Source: Candidatus Latescibacterota bacterium
Lineage (GTDB): Bacteria > Latescibacterota > UBA2968 > UBA8231
Direction: 5' to 3'
NCBI GenBank assembly: GCA_965204725.1
Contig: OZ242005.1
Span: 4,672,001-4,736,000, forward strand
DNA: 64,000 bases
Positions 21,349-25,438 of the stretch are shown here, in pieces. Under the pieces are notes generated by a model, which worked only from the letters and a program-made list of their open reading frames with translations, made no database searches and was not told the DNA's origin. A program made the position numbers and the translations under genes. Every line of letters begins with the position of its first letter. Position 1 is the stretch's first letter.

Positions 21349-23322
<1,974 letters not shown>

Positions 23323-23344
23323 GGGCCGTTTGAGCAAAAAGCAG

Positions 23345-23374
23345 TTGACACGGTTCTTGGGCGTTAGTCATATT
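23345..23374 (+). promoter_or_regulatory. Sigma70-type promoter
   Basis: Perfect -35 TTGACA at 23345-23350; -10 CATATT at 18-nt spacing. Confidence 0.55.
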
Positions 23375-23379
23375 AAACG

Positions 23380-23682
23380 CAAGACGGGTTCAGGGGCCAT
23401 AAAGCCTCTGTTGCCGCCACGCTGAGGCTCGAGGCTACGCGAGCGAGCCAGCCCGGCTTTGTAACTGGCCGCAACGACGCGCAGAGTTGGAGTATGGATA
23501 TGAGGCGCGCACAAGCGAAAGGAGGTGGTCCATTGAGTAGTAATTGTACCGCAGGGAGGTTGATCACTTGATCAACTCCAGGTGATTAACTACCTGGTCA
23601 GGAGCTATGCGGCCCCGGTCGCGTAACTTCTGAGAGTACAGCCGGGCGCATCCCATCTTAGCGGGTGCGCCCGGTTTTTTGT
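23380..23682 (+). ncRNA. Candidate structured small RNA or small-ORF transcript, family not recognised
   Basis: Lies between a promoter and a strong terminator; several hairpins; AAAGGAGGTGGTCCA precedes a 12-codon TTG ORF (23533-23571). Confidence 0.5.
23641..23682 (+). terminator. Intrinsic terminator
   Basis: CCGGGCGCATCC...GGGTGCGCCCGG 12-bp stem followed by TTTTTTGT. Confidence 0.85.
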
Positions 23683-23751
23683 TCGCGTTGGGCTTGATTG
23701 GTTCCCACGCGGTGTTTTTGCCATATTGTCCGCAAGGAGAGGAGGCCGAGT

Positions 23752-24726
23752 ATGAAGCGCGTCGCTAAGCCCGCAGGGGCCTATAACATCGTGATAGAAG
23801 AGGTCGAGATGCCGGCTATTGCTCCGACCGAGATTTTGATCCGCGCCGAGTGTTCGCTAATCAGCCGCGGCTCGGAGATTTGGCGTCGCTACGTGCGCGA
23901 AGAGGCGATAGACCATCGCGCCATGGGCTACTCGCTGGTCGGTCGAGTCGCAGCGGTTGGCTCGGCGGTCGAAGAGTTCAAAACCGGCGACTGGGTCGCG
24001 GCTCTGGCGCCGCACGCCGAATACGTGGCGGTCGAAGTCGTAGCCAGCCGACACAAGCCGGCGGTCGTGTCCTTGCCGCCGGGCCTGTCGCCCGAGGCGG
24101 GGACCTTCTGGCCGTTGGCAACCAGCTCGGTCCTGTGGATGTGGGAGACCGGGGCCGGTGCGGATCACGTCGTGGTCATCCAAGGGCAGGGCTTGGTCGG
24201 CAGCGGTTGTATGCAGGCGGCCAAAGCGCAGGGCGCGGGGCGCGTCATCGGGATTGATGCGTTGCCCTTGCGCTGCGAGTTGGCGCACGAGTTGGGGGCC
24301 GACGCGGTAATTGACGCCAGTGCCGGCGACCCGGTCGCGCAGGTCTTGGAGCGGACGGACGGAGACGGGGCGGACGTGGTGGTTGAGGCCGTTGGGGGTC
24401 GGGCTGGGGCGCGCGCTTTTGCCGAGGCGCAGGACATGCTCAAGCACGGCGGCCTCTTGCAGGTGCTGGGGCTGTACGAAGAAGAGCCGCTGCCGCTTTA
24501 CTCGGGCAAAATCATGGGCAAGCGCCTCGTAGGTAGCTACCTCGACCCCGGCCTGCGGCCCCAAGGATCGGCCCGGGCGCTAGAACTGTTGGCTACAGAC
24601 CAGATCCAGTTCGCCAAGATGATCACCCACCGCTTCCCCTACACCGAAGCGGCAGCGGCCTTCGACCTGCTCTACAATCGGTTGGGCGAGACGATGGCGG
24701 TATTGCTGATGTGGGAAACTGACTGA
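23752..24726 (+). CDS. MDR superfamily (zinc-binding ADH-like) dehydrogenase
   Basis: GroES-like N-terminus (ISRGSE, MGYS replacing the canonical Zn ligands), GQGLVG Rossmann motif, ITHRFP. Confidence 0.88.
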   Translation: MKRVAKPAGAYNIVIEEVEMPAIAPTEILIRAECSLISRGSEIWRRYVREEAIDHRAMGYSLVGRVAAVGSAVEEFKTGDWVAALAPHAEYVAVEVVASRHKPAVVSLPPGLSPEAGTFWPLATSSVLWMWETGAGADHVVVIQGQGLVGSGCMQAAKAQGAGRVIGIDALPLRCELAHELGADAVIDASAGDPVAQVLERTDGDGADVVVEAVGGRAGARAFAEAQDMLKHGGLLQVLGLYEEEPLPLYSGKIMGKRLVGSYLDPGLRPQGSARALELLATDQIQFAKMITHRFPYTEAAAAFDLLYNRLGETMAVLLMWETD

Positions 24727-24730
24727 GGAG

Positions 24731-25438
24731 ATGACGATGAGTAGGAGCATAGAGAAGCTCTTTCGCGCCCCCTACGGGGTGCCCAATGCGCTGCAAGCCG
24801 TAGAAGAAGGGCTGTGGATTACCGACCAAATTACCGACCGAGTGGCACTGGTCGAAATCGCCGCGCCGTCTGAATACGGCGTCACCCGCCTAATCCGCGA
24901 TATTCCCAGCGAGTCGTCCAACACCAGCGGCATGGCTTGGGGCGGCGGTTCGCTGTGGTTGGCGGCCAACGGGGCGGGTACGCTCTGGCGGCCCGAGCGC
25001 CCCACGGACGCCAAGTCGGGGCAGGGCGAGATATTCGAGGTTGACCCAGATACTGGCGCGACCCGCAATCGCTACCCAGTGCCCGGCGGGGGCGGGGTTC
25101 ACGGAATGGAGTACGATCCGGTTGAAGCGGGCTACGTGTGGATCACCACCCTCAAGAACCAGACGCTGAGCAAAGTCAAGATCGCCGGCTGGTCGGTCGA
25201 GCACGTGCTGGACCTGCCCTACGGGCGGGCGCACGGCGTGGTGCGGGTTGCCGATGGTATCTGGGTCGTGCATACGTCCGACCGCGTGATCGTCAAGCTC
25301 GACGTGGAGAGCGGGGCCGAGTTGGATCGAGTCATGGTCCCCGACAGCGACCCCCAGCCGCATGGTCTGTCGATTTTTGGCGAGGATTTGGTCTATTGCG
25401 ACGCCGCCTCGGGGTGGGTCGCCAAAATCCGGTTGTAA
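24731..25438 (+). CDS. Hypothetical beta-propeller protein (Vgb/glutamine cyclotransferase-like)
   Basis: Repeated blade motifs (SGMAWGGGSLW, HGMEYD, HGVVRVADGIW, PHGLS). Confidence 0.65.
   Translation: MTMSRSIEKLFRAPYGVPNALQAVEEGLWITDQITDRVALVEIAAPSEYGVTRLIRDIPSESSNTSGMAWGGGSLWLAANGAGTLWRPERPTDAKSGQGEIFEVDPDTGATRNRYPVPGGGGVHGMEYDPVEAGYVWITTLKNQTLSKVKIAGWSVEHVLDLPYGRAHGVVRVADGIWVVHTSDRVIVKLDVESGAELDRVMVPDSDPQPHGLSIFGEDLVYCDAASGWVAKIRL

What the first reader, a model, noticed from the sequence alone, without database searches (positions are those of the whole stretch)
23345..23682. Stand-alone structured transcript with a 15-nt complement to the 16S rRNA 3' end and a tiny ORF
Seen: a ~430-nt gap after metG holds a TTGACA promoter, a strong intrinsic terminator (23641-23682) and several hairpins between them. 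These are CAGGGGC/GCCTCTG (23391-23410); a long nested stem GTTGCCGCCA...GGCTCG...CGAGCC...TGGCCGCAAC (23410-23475); GGAG(G)TTGATC/GATCAACTCC (23555-23579); and CCAGGT/ACCTGG (23578-23597). AAAGGAGGTGGTCCA (23518-23532) pairs with the canonical 16S tail UGGAUCACCUCCUUU over 15 nt with one G-U, far beyond an ordinary RBS. It sits at normal spacing before TTG-AGT-AGT... encoding only MSSNCTAGRLIT (23533-23571; in-frame ATGs at 23494/23500 would extend it to 25/23 aa). Two more SD-like motifs (GGGAGGTTGATC, CAGGTGAT) follow, each sequestered in a stem. One stem retains two CCWGG sites, a motif otherwise rare in this window, which hints at selection. I do not recognise 6S, SRP, tmRNA, RNase P or T-box signatures. 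Inference: an undescribed ribosome-binding/sequestering RNA or micropeptide gene. A CsrA-type GGA sponge or a type I toxin mRNA are alternatives.
Basis: partly seen in the sequence, partly recalled or inferred. Interest (0 to 1): 0.75.

Follow-up and report, generated by a model that had tools for sequence, protein, structure and literature searches.

The report
Ribosome-docking mini-mRNA with twin Shine-Dalgarno sites
This is a free-standing gene for a structured, roughly 300-base RNA that matches almost the whole free tail of 16S ribosomal RNA and carries a 12-codon reading frame, so it looks like a relative, in a different phylum and with a different build, of the poorly understood 'rre' small mRNAs of alphaproteobacteria.

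Summary
Window 23345-23682 is a stand-alone transcription unit. It has a TTGACA-18-CATATT promoter, a 12-bp terminator followed by a U-run, a 16-nt complement (one G-U) to the genome's own 16S 3' end, and a TTG-started 12-codon ORF.

It is single-copy. It is conserved in 23 of 24 other genomes of the genus and in 72 of 132 genomes of the class. Metatranscriptome contigs from four studies cover it as a short RNA at much higher depth than its neighbours.

In 69 of 70 genomes examined, a start codon opens a 9-13 codon frame. The frame always ends at the apex of a covarying hairpin, and a second GGAGGT lies 8-9 nt before the stop. The stop changes among TGA, TAA and TAG but stays a stop. The peptide is not conserved, so translation appears to be selected, not the peptide.

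The closest known kind is the alphaproteobacterial rre small mRNAs (rreB/rreR, Hahn et al. 2016): they bind 30S, are weakly translated, and have no known function. This element is a new variant. It lies outside Alphaproteobacteria, is longer, has a shorter ORF, and has a second, masked SD positioned to meet the terminating ribosome.

Pattern-related elements occur in MAGs labelled Planctomycetota, Armatimonadota and KSB1. This scan earlier noted a relative in Gemmatimonadota. The CsrA-sponge, type I toxin, 6S and leader readings are not supported.

The parts
23345..23374 (+). Sigma-70-type promoter, TTGACA-18-CATATT. The inferred transcript start is near 23381.
   Evidence: Consensus scan. TTGAC and the -10 box are conserved in all 24 genus sequences, and a TTGAC...TATATT-like pair sits at a similar distance in other genera. 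The start site is inferred, not mapped.
23381..23475 (+). 5' structured domain: hairpin P1 (23391-23396/23405-23410), hairpin P2 (23426-23431/23444-23449) and further pairings that are not resolved.
Evidence: P1 and P2 are each 100% paired in 24 sequences, and P2 has one compensatory pair. The domain varies between genera.
23476..23510 (+). Hairpin P3 (GACGCGC...GCGCGC), just upstream of the ribosome-binding site.
   Evidence: Helix 1 of model R1. All 6 of its pairs show compensatory changes, and 96.8% of cells are paired in 33 diverse sequences.
23517..23532 (+). Extended Shine-Dalgarno site SD1, GAAAGGAGGTGGTCCA: 16 nt complementary to the 16S 3' tail, with one G-U.
   Evidence: GAAAGGAGGTGGT is invariant across the genus alignment and in the 22 matches from 18 further genomes aligned. 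The 5' AAA is predicted unpaired (0.70-0.83) and GGTGGTC mostly paired (unpaired 0.08-0.21) in 40 homologues.
23525..23552 (+). Mask hairpin. GTGGTC (23525-23530) pairs with G.ACC.GC (23546-23552) and encloses the TTG start codon.
   Evidence: Helices 3 and 4 of R1. The two G-C pairs that use the 'wobble' G are present in 33 of 33 sequences, and the helix is 90% paired. An alternative partner for 23546-23549 is GTAC at 23635-23638; that pairing is invariant, so it is uninformative.
23533..23571 (+). Mini-ORF: TTG, 11 more codons, then TGA (MSSNCTAGRLIT).
   Evidence: In 69 of 70 genomes the first NTG after SD1 opens a 9-13 codon frame that ends at the same structural place. The stop is TGA in 63, TAA in 4 and TAG in 2. 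All indels in the genus are multiples of 3.
23555..23560 (+). Internal Shine-Dalgarno core SD2 (GGAGGT), 8 nt before the stop codon and buried in the 5' arm of P4.
   Evidence: The gap to the stop is 8 nt in 56 and 9 nt in 12 of 69 genomes. SD2 is read in different frames in different genera (G-R, R-R or G-G).
23552..23597 (+). Long hairpin P4. The stop codon lies at its apex. In this genus the loop, ATCAACTC, resembles the 16S tail.
   Evidence: Helix 5: 16 pairs, 7 with compensatory changes, 96.7% paired. It is the MFE as a single hairpin in 30 of 33 sequences. The loop sequence varies between genera.
23598..23633 (+). Hairpin P5: outer stem 23598-23605/23626-23633, inner stem 23609-23613/23618-23622.
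   Evidence: Helices 6 and 7: all 13 pairs show compensatory changes.
23642..23680 (+). Intrinsic terminator: a 12-bp G+C-rich stem followed by TTTTTT.
   Evidence: The stem sequence CCGGGCGC...GCGCCCGG plus a T-run recurs in other genera. RNA-library contigs end at 23641-23655.

Best explanation
This is a free-standing gene for a roughly 300-nt 'ribosome-docking' mini-mRNA of the rre kind.

Shown:
- It has its own promoter and terminator.
- It is single-copy.
- It is conserved across a family of Latescibacterota.
- It appears in RNA libraries as a short, deep contig.
- It has covarying helices.
- It has a 16-nt complement to the 16S tail.
- Its reading frame keeps its start and stop while the peptide drifts.

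Inferred mechanism:
1. The single-stranded GAAAGGAG end of SD1 acts as a toehold for the 3' tail of 16S rRNA in a free 30S subunit.
2. Pairing then spreads into GGTGGTCC and opens the small hairpin that masks the TTG start.
3. The very long SD helix and the weak start codon make initiation slow. The RNA therefore spends much of its life bound to 30S, as was measured for rreB.
4. When translation does proceed, the ribosome melts the 5' arm of P4.
5. It reaches the stop at the apex just as the freed internal GGAGGT lies 8-9 nt upstream. That is 5-6 nt from the P-site codon, the spacing of an initiation complex, so the anti-SD can pair again and hold the terminating ribosome.

The selected product is this engagement with the ribosome, not the peptide.

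The most likely role is a sensor or buffer of free ribosome capacity whose own structure and lifetime depend on being translated. Its downstream output is unknown.
For: Stand-alone unit:
- Promoter and terminator.
- Four RNA-library runs from four studies each hold a 164-251-nt contig confined to 23400-23655. Depths were 7-174, against 2-13 for flanking-gene contigs in the three runs that held any.
- The neighbouring genes are not kept outside the nearest genera. ADH is present in 22 of 23 genus loci but only 3 of 39 others; metG in 19 of 23 and 5 of 39.

Conservation:
- 23 of 24 other genomes of the genus at 81-93% identity.
- 72 of 132 genomes of the class with model R1 (f1 67/75, f3 2/3, f4 2/22, f2 0/31). 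There is one locus per genome; G092's second, weak match is on the opposite strand of the same place.
- One copy in the window's own genome.

Structure:
- 94.6% of cells paired.
- 32 of 47 pairs compensatory.
- Slid controls give 34-45% paired.
- 0 of 500 shuffles reach the observed values.

Ribosome site:
-.
- The toehold-plus-mask pattern is seen in 40 folds.
- The G that makes the G-U with 16S pairs with an invariant C inside the RNA (33 of 33).

Translation:
- 69 of 70 genomes keep the frame.
- The set spans 18 combinations of spacing, start, length, stop and gap, and 42 distinct ORF sequences.
- ORF lengths are 9-13 codons.
- The stop changes among TGA, TAA and TAG.

Peptide not selected:
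- MSSNCTAGRLIT, MESTGRSIT, MKHTTIRRWTA, MIATTRRWVV and MSSCIPAGGATT are all found.
- GGAGGT is read in two different frames.

Precedent:
- rreB co-sediments with 30S.
- It is weakly translated because of its extended SD and GTG start.
- It becomes more stable when the start codon is removed.
- All but the first 5 nt of its complementarity region are predicted to be paired (PMC5711450, sections 13, 14 and 19).
Against: - No experiment bears on this RNA. 30S binding, translation and the role of SD2 are inferred.
- The contigs cannot show strand, ends or true abundance, and they come from relatives about 90% identical.
- The alignment used for the pair counts was fitted to the model's structure, so it leans towards that structure.
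- The folds use a guessed 5' end for most homologues.
- In B. japonicum, overproducing rreB did not change growth. [quoted passage not shown] This speaks against a simple sponge.
- The peptide is well kept within the genus, so a peptide role is not excluded.
- The alphaproteobacterial analogues fetched here lack a conserved SD2 near the stop. That feature may therefore serve only RNA folding.
Confidence: 0.6

Rival explanations
1. Micropeptide gene: the 12-residue peptide is the functional product, and the RNA features only tune its synthesis.
For: The frame, start and stop are kept in 69 of 70 genomes. The peptide is nearly constant within the genus: MSSN[C/R]TAGRLIT, with K for N or T for N in a few. 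Many homologues start with M-S-S, as do some alphaproteobacterial analogues. RreB and RreR are conserved within their clades.
Against: Across genera the sequence, length (9-13 residues) and even the frame in which GGAGGT is read all change, while the nucleotides stay. Synonymous positions in 23552-23597 are almost invariant within the genus, which points to constraint on the RNA. Cys changes to Arg within the genus. The peptide's C-terminal half is dictated by the SD2/P4 sequence.
Confidence: 0.15
2. Base-pairing or protein-binding small RNA whose ORF is incidental, for example a regulator that uses its SD-like or anti-SD-like segments on other mRNAs, or a CsrA-type GGA sponge.
For: The RNA is abundant and structured and ends in a terminator. 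It has several GGA motifs. In this genus the P4 loop, ATCAACTC, resembles the 16S tail and could pair with SD sequences.
Against: Frame conservation and stop-to-stop changes are not expected for an incidental ORF. The P4 loop is not conserved between genera. No CsrA was found in the genome, which is 94% complete. The GGA motifs lie in stems, not loops.
Confidence: 0.12
3. Leader or attenuator that controls the downstream Zn-dehydrogenase gene through translation of a leader peptide.
For: A small ORF followed by alternative hairpins and a terminator resembles ribosome-dependent attenuators. The ADH gene follows in 22 of 23 genus loci.
Against: ADH is a neighbour in only 3 of 39 loci of other genera. 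No conserved antiterminator pairing with the terminator's 5' arm was seen. A conserved TTGGTT-18-CATATT promoter-like site lies between the terminator and ADH. In RNA libraries the element's contigs are separate from the ADH contigs and far deeper.
Confidence: 0.04
4. A divergent housekeeping RNA, such as the 6S RNA that was not detected in this genome, or a type I toxin mRNA.
For: RF00013 (6S) gives no match at E<=1 in the genome. The RNA is abundant and single-copy.
Against: tmRNA, RNase P RNA and SRP RNA are found elsewhere in the genome. The 6S model 'rings' in only 5 of 14 control genomes, so its silence means little. The fold is multi-branched with an SD and an ORF, not a rod with a central bubble. 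The peptide is 12 hydrophilic residues, and no antisense partner or multi-copy pattern is seen.
Confidence: 0.03

Closest known systems
rre small mRNAs of alphaproteobacteria: rreB (Bradyrhizobiaceae) and rreR (Rhodobacterales). Hahn et al., RNA Biol 2016/17, PMC5711450. I read the abstract and sections 13, 14, 18 and 19.
   Same: Both are free-standing short transcripts with their own promoter and terminator. Both have a 16-17-nt complement to the 16S 3' tail that spans the SD, followed directly by a tiny ORF with a weak (non-ATG) start. In both, most of the SD is masked in a hairpin and only its 5' end is free. Both are conserved within a clade but sit in changing gene neighbourhoods. The function is unknown in both.
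   Different: - Phylum: Latescibacterota here; the paper reports Alphaproteobacteria only.
- Size: about 300 nt, with a roughly 135-nt structured 5' domain, against 165 nt.
- ORF: 9-13 codons against 14-18, or 18-30 in 25 of the 26 alphaproteobacterial analogues fetched here.
- Complement: it carries a conserved G-U and stops just before the start codon, instead of including its first base.
- SD2: a second GGAGGT lies 8-9 nt before the stop, with the stop at a hairpin apex. This was not seen as a conserved feature in the 26 analogues.
- Similarity: there is no sequence similarity beyond the SD.
Rfam RF01867, Caulobacter sRNA CC2171
   Same: It is the only Rfam model with any signal. It shares GAAAGGAGGUG.UCCA plus a start codon at the 5' end and a terminator at the 3' end. 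Nine of the 26 alphaproteobacterial rre-like loci fetched begin with the CC2171 consensus (GTG TCT CAT TGT CAT), so CC2171 is probably the Caulobacter-type rre analogue. That is my inference. CC2171 is expressed, and the condition that affects it has not been identified (preprint 10.1101/2022.01.24.477521; passages read).
   Different: The score is 21.9 bits against a gathering score of 75, and the middle of the model does not align. This element is not a member.
Earlier finding of this scan, e1-2436803: a 'ribosome-docking mini-mRNA' in a Gemmatimonadota bacterium (an AI note, unchecked)
   Same: It describes a free-standing RNA with a 14-nt anti-16S SD and a conserved mini-ORF, and it was likewise filed next to the rre genes.
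   Different: It is on other DNA, about 235 nt long, with a 20-codon CxxC ORF. No look-alike of the present sequence is on record in the scan.
6S RNA (by analogy of logic only)
   Same: Both are abundant stand-alone RNAs that imitate the natural substrate of a core machine (an open promoter for RNA polymerase; a start site for the ribosome). Both could be left by making a short product (pRNA; a mini-peptide). This comparison rests on my own knowledge of 6S RNA.
   Different: The machines differ and there is no structural or sequence likeness. RF00013 does not match.

Membership tests
rre small mRNAs (rreB/rreR) | Free-standing short transcript with its own promoter and terminator | tested here: met
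   Promoter; terminator; both conserved; short separate contigs in RNA libraries. Transcript ends were not mapped.
rre small mRNAs (rreB/rreR) | At least 16 nt of complementarity to the 3' end of the organism's own 16S rRNA, spanning the SD | tested here: met
   23517-23532 against ...TGGATCACCTCCTTTC of the genome's 16S gene: 15 Watson-Crick pairs plus one G-U. This assumes the mature 16S keeps the TTTC end.
rre small mRNAs (rreB/rreR) | A small ORF begins at the end of the complementarity region with a weak start codon and is conserved in the clade | tested here: met
   TTG at 23533, directly after the complement. The frame is kept in 69 of 70 genomes; starts are TTG in 49, GTG in 12 and ATG in 8.
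rre small mRNAs (rreB/rreR) | The SD is largely base-paired, with only its 5' nucleotides free | tested here: met
   Predicted unpaired probability is 0.70-0.83 for AAA and 0.08-0.21 for GGTGGTC, averaged over 40 homologues. The mask helix is 90% paired. This is prediction only.
rre small mRNAs (rreB/rreR) | Sequence or peptide homology to rreB or rreR | tested here: not met
   The CC2171 model scores 21.9 bits against a cut-off of 75. The peptides of the 26 alphaproteobacterial analogues (MSHCH..., MSS...; 18-30 residues in 25 of them) are unrelated apart from M-S. rreB and rreR themselves were not at hand.
rre small mRNAs (rreB/rreR) | Strong 30S binding, weak translation, and stability that depends on the start codon | not testable with these tools
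   These are experimental properties of rreB.
Rfam RF01867 CC2171 | Score at or above the gathering threshold | tested here: not met
   21.9 bits against 75; no hit at gathering.
CsrA/RsmA-sequestering sRNA | CsrA is encoded in the genome, and the RNA has multiple GGA motifs in hairpin loops | tested here: not met
   PF02599 gives 0 matches in the 94%-complete genome. The GGA motifs lie in stems.
Type I toxin mRNA | A hydrophobic, membrane-active peptide and a cis or trans antisense RNA | tested here: not met
   The peptide MSSNCTAGRLIT is short and polar. The gene is single-copy. An antisense transcript was not testable.
6S RNA | Match to RF00013; a rod-like fold with a central bubble | tested here: not met
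   No match at E<=1. The fold is multi-branched and covarying.
Ribosome-dependent attenuator (leader peptide) | The same regulated gene lies downstream in one transcript, with a terminator/antiterminator alternative | tested here: not met
   The downstream gene is kept in only 3 of 39 loci of other genera. No antiterminator was seen. Contigs in RNA libraries are separate.

The most novel reading that the evidence does not exclude
This would be a ribosome counterpart of 6S RNA. An abundant decoy start site, found in several phyla (Latescibacterota, Planctomycetota, Armatimonadota, KSB1, and the alphaproteobacterial rre genes), parks 30S or 70S ribosomes through a full-length anti-SD duplex. The ribosome escapes only by translating a throw-away mini-ORF. 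The second SD catches it again at the stop, so one RNA can hold or cycle a ribosome according to the cell's translational state.
Probability: 0.12. Interest if true: 0.9.

Novelty: new variant of a known kind. Interest (0 to 1): 0.6.

Why it matters
The rre small mRNAs are a little-studied oddity, and their function is still unknown. The paper describing them reports them only in alphaproteobacteria. The only papers in the library that cite it come from the same laboratory and deal with other topics.

This finding places the same design in an uncultured phylum. The design is a full-length complement to the 16S tail, a self-masked start and a throw-away mini-ORF. Here it is nearly universal in one family. 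A pattern scan also finds it in MAGs labelled as at least three further phyla. The design is therefore either old or repeatedly invented.

The comparative data add two points that the alphaproteobacterial work could not give:
- Selection acts on the act of translation, not on the peptide.
- A second SD is placed to meet the terminating ribosome.

Both points can be tested directly with toeprinting, ribosome profiling and mutants. Such tests would address how cells sense or buffer free ribosomes.

Tried and rejected
- **Rfam.** No family reached its gathering score in the window or in 10 loci from other phyla. At E<=10 only CC2171 was of note.
- **ARAGORN.** No tRNA or tmRNA in 22800-24200.
- **Relic of an rRNA operon.** Beyond the 16-nt complement, the sequence does not resemble the reverse complement of the 16S 3' region.
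- **Longer ATG-started frames (23 or 25 aa).** These are broken in some genus members.
- **prfB-like frameshift site at the stop.** The spacing and the P-site codon do not fit. This is reasoning from the sequence and from recalled knowledge of prfB.
- **A downstream ORF served by the third SD-like motif.** The ATG at 23607 exists only in this genome.
- **A 40-codon alternative frame in Pirellulaceae loci.** It is truncated in one of them.
- **CC2171 in two alphaproteobacterial genomes reached through my loci.** Only sub-threshold matches were found.
- **An all-against-all covariation listing.** It was too noisy to use.
- **The fold of the 5' domain.** Three rival long-range pairings could not be separated.
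- **Earlier scan records.** No look-alike by sequence.
- **Literature searches for ribosome sponges and minigenes.** Nothing relevant came up.
- It used a mis-framed ADH query and was redone.
- **Parts of the stretch without cover in the RNA-library contigs.** These are not evidence of absence.
Full report
**What is there.** Methionyl-tRNA synthetase (Pfam tRNA-synt_1g) ends at 23322, and a zinc-dehydrogenase gene starts at 23752. The gap between them holds one compact unit on the + strand:
- The only sigma-70-like promoter match in 22800-24200 is TTGACA-18-CATATT at 23345-23374; shuffles give a mean of 0.3.
- At the far end a 12-bp G+C-rich stem (23642-23653/23663-23674) is followed by TTTTTT. 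The simple terminator scan missed it because its loop is 9 nt and the scan allows at most 8.
- The 316-nt stretch folds better than all 100 shuffles, z = -3.4.
- The genome's single detected 16S gene ends ...GGCTGGATCACCTCCTTTCTAAGG. GAAAGGAGGTGGTCCA (23517-23532) therefore pairs with 16 bases of the tail, with one G-U.
- AAGGAGGTGRTCC occurs only twice in the 5.43-Mb assembly, at the 16S gene and here; the control gave 0.
- TTG at 23533 opens MSSNCTAGRLIT, and TGA lies at 23569-23571.
- CCWGG is strongly avoided in the window (13 sites against 162 +/- 12 expected).

**It is a real, conserved, single-copy gene.**
- BLAST-level search finds it in 23 of 24 other genomes of the genus at 81-93% identity, and in none of 16 genomes of other families.
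- In the alignment, conservation starts at the -35 box and ends after the U-run.
- A covariance model of 23476-23640 (R1) finds one locus in the window's own genome.
- R1 matches 72 of 132 genomes of the class: family f1 67/75, f3 2/3, f4 2/22, f2 0/31. Twenty of the 31 genera have a match.
- Records of relatives are titled Candidatus Latescibacterota MAGs; some are labelled Gemmatimonadetes.
- metG and the dehydrogenase flank the element in 19 and 22 of 23 genus loci. They do so in only 5 and 3 of 39 loci from other genera. The element is therefore not tied to either neighbour.

**It is present in RNA libraries as a short, deep species.** Thirteen runs on record as RNA hold part of the stretch. 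I laid four runs from four studies. One of them (X1) is only guessed to be RNA, not recorded as such. Each holds a contig of 164-251 nt confined to 23400-23655, about 90% identical to the window, so these come from relatives. Word depths were 13.5, 121, 7 and 174, while contigs on the flanking genes had depths of 2-13. Contigs cannot show the strand, the exact ends or true abundance. This counts as support, not proof, for a stand-alone abundant transcript.

**Structure.** I counted pairs on 33 diverse homologues aligned to R1.
- 94.6% of cells form standard pairs.
- 32 of 47 pairs show compensatory changes.
- The covariation score is 0.395, against 0.035-0.067 for slid partners.
- No shuffle of 500 reaches the observed values.

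The alignment was fitted to the model, which favours it. Even so, the margin over the slid controls is large.

The supported helices are these:
- A hairpin just upstream of the SD (23476-23510; 6 of 6 pairs compensatory).
- A long hairpin P4 (23552-23597; 7 of 16 pairs compensatory, 96.7% paired).
- A two-part hairpin P5 (23598-23633; 13 of 13 pairs compensatory).

P4 is the MFE as a single hairpin in 30 of 33 homologues. The loop that gives them their anti-SD-like arm (ATCAACTCC) changes between genera.

The outer stem is weak (81.5% paired), and several long-range pairings compete.

**The ORF is read.** I examined the element in 70 genomes. One, the weakest model hit, lacked the SD motif. 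In the other 69:
- The first TTG, GTG or ATG lying 5-10 nt after GGAGGT opens a frame of 9-13 codons.
- The frame ends at the same structural spot, the top of the 5' arm of P4.
- The set has 18 different combinations of spacing, start codon, length, stop codon and gap, and 42 distinct ORF sequences.
- The stop is TGA in 63, TAA in 4 and TAG in 2.

Every length difference is a multiple of three, including a +3 and a -3 indel inside the genus. One lineage loses a base before GGAGGT and gains one after it, which keeps the frame. A stop that mutates only into other stops, together with indels that always keep the frame, is what a translated ORF shows.

**The peptide is not what is kept.** The sequences include MSSNCTAGRLIT, MSSTSTTGRWIT, MESTGRSIT, MKHTTIRRWTA, MIATTRRWVV and MSSCIPAGGATT. 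The invariant GGAGGT inside the ORF is read as G-R or R-R in some genera and as G-G in others.

**Two ribosome sites.**
- *SD1.* GAAAGGAGGTGGT is invariant in the sequences I aligned. Thermodynamic folds of 40 homologues leave its AAA end free (unpaired probability 0.70-0.83) and pair GGTGGTC (0.08-0.21). The partner in the model is the CC(R)C in mid-ORF, which forms a small hairpin around the start codon. The G that makes the G-U with 16S pairs there with an invariant C in 33 of 33 sequences. That explains why it is G and not A.
- *SD2.* GGAGGT lies 8 nt (56 genomes) or 9 nt (12 genomes) before the stop and is buried in P4. With the stop in the A site, it lies 5-6 nt from the P-site codon, the spacing of an initiation complex. 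That the anti-SD re-pairs there is my inference.

**What it resembles.** A word search of the scan's earlier notes turned up a Gemmatimonadota 'ribosome-docking mini-mRNA' filed beside the alphaproteobacterial rre genes (e1-2436803). I read the source, Hahn et al. 2016 (PMC5711450; abstract and sections 13, 14, 18 and 19). It reports the following:
- rreB is a 165-nt mRNA with a 17-nt complement to the 16S tail and a 14-codon GTG ORF.
- It sits in the ribosome pellet and co-sediments with 30S.
- It is translated weakly because of the long SD and the GTG start.
- It becomes more stable when the start codon is replaced.
- It is predicted to have all but the first five bases of the complement paired.
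- Analogues were found only in four alphaproteobacterial orders.
- Overproduction did not affect growth, and the function is called elusive.

The only papers in the library that cite it are from the same laboratory and concern another subject. Supplementary alignments were not available to me.

I fetched alphaproteobacterial analogues myself. Of 301 genomes, 26 carry GAAAGGAGGTGATCCA followed by ATG, GTG or TTG; the reversed control gave 0. Their ORFs are 18-30 codons in 25 of the 26 and show no conserved SD-like motif before the stop. Nine of them begin like the Rfam CC2171 consensus. This explains the lone weak Rfam hit (21.9 bits against a cut-off of 75) and suggests that CC2171 is the Caulobacter-type rre. 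That is my inference.

**Beyond the phylum.** I ran one exact-pattern scan of the species-level genome collection. The pattern was SD1, a gap of 18-40 nt, GGAGGT, a gap of 6-7 nt, then YYTRR. I expected only a few hits by chance (my own estimate). The scan gave 104 stretches, of which 80 were listed.

I looked at 32 of the listed loci that were not obviously Latescibacterota:
- 27 have a 10-14 codon ORF that starts 5-10 nt after SD1 and ends at the pattern's stop.
- 3 were Latescibacterota-like.
- 1 was a chance hit with no such small ORF, in a stretch that looks like part of a gene.
- 1 reads through.

The 27 come from MAGs labelled Planctomycetota, Armatimonadota, Hebobacteria, 'Bacillota', KSB1 and Alphaproteobacteria. 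Their peptides include MTSDCCCCQGGGTA, MIYVCICQGGGRT, MLHRPGGGVS and MSSWPRRSTA.

In 25 of the 27 the MFE pairs at least 4 of the 6 SD2 bases, usually with the stop in or beside a loop. SD1, SD2 and the TRR were required by the pattern. The in-frame start, the intergenic setting and the terminators were not. None of 10 such loci hits Rfam.

**Reading.** I file the element as a new variant of the rre kind. It meets the structural definition: a free-standing small mRNA, a 16-nt anti-16S site, a self-masked weak start and a conserved tiny ORF. It fails any test of sequence homology, and its build differs in its long 5' domain, its shorter ORF, and its second SD with the stop at a hairpin apex.

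The steps shown are the transcription-unit anatomy, conservation, covariation, frame conservation and presence in RNA libraries. The steps inferred are toehold docking of 30S, slow initiation, re-pairing at SD2 during termination, and a role in sensing or buffering free ribosomes.

A plain sponge is made less likely by the rreB overexpression result. A peptide function is not excluded. The CsrA (no CsrA gene), type I toxin, 6S and attenuator readings are not supported.

Noticed in passing
window 1-64000: CCWGG is about 12-fold under-represented: 13 sites against 162 +/- 12 in dinucleotide-preserving shuffles. This suggests pressure from a CCWGG-specific restriction or Dcm-like system. Two of the 13 sites lie in the base of hairpin P4.
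   Followed up: partly
G000:C1:4669700-4670058 (about 2 kb before the window start): The genome's tmRNA gene lies just upstream of the window (209.9 bits). RNase P RNA and SRP RNA lie elsewhere. No 6S RNA was detected with RF00013 at E<=1.
   Followed up: no
window 23698-23751: A second conserved promoter-like site, TTGGTT-18-CATATT, lies between the terminator and the dehydrogenase start codon. It uses the same unusual -10 hexamer as the element's own promoter.
   Followed up: no
L116, L122, L128, L156, L163 (MAGs labelled Armatimonadota, Hebobacteria or 'Bacillota'): In this clade the related element (peptide MLHRPGGG..) always follows a 148-166-aa gene. I read that gene as archease-like from its DHTAD motif, recalled and not tested. 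In four of the five loci (the fifth contig is cut short) that gene follows one that looks like gyrA.
   Followed up: no
L216-L241 (alphaproteobacterial genomes): Of 301 sampled alphaproteobacterial genomes, 26 carry one GAAAGGAGGTGATCCA+NTG site each. Two recurrent peptide types follow it, MSHCH... and MSS...EQP... Many of the ORFs contain a segment complementary to the SD or start region, such as CCTGGATC or GCAGCCTC.
   Followed up: partly
window 24731-25438: The gene after the dehydrogenase gives only a sub-threshold match to the virginiamycin B lyase family (28.7 bits against a cut-off of 50).
   Followed up: no
window 23642-23680 and homologues: The terminator stem sequence itself (CCGGGCGC...GCGCCCGG) is kept across genera, although a terminator needs only pairing. 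It may have a second role.
   Followed up: no
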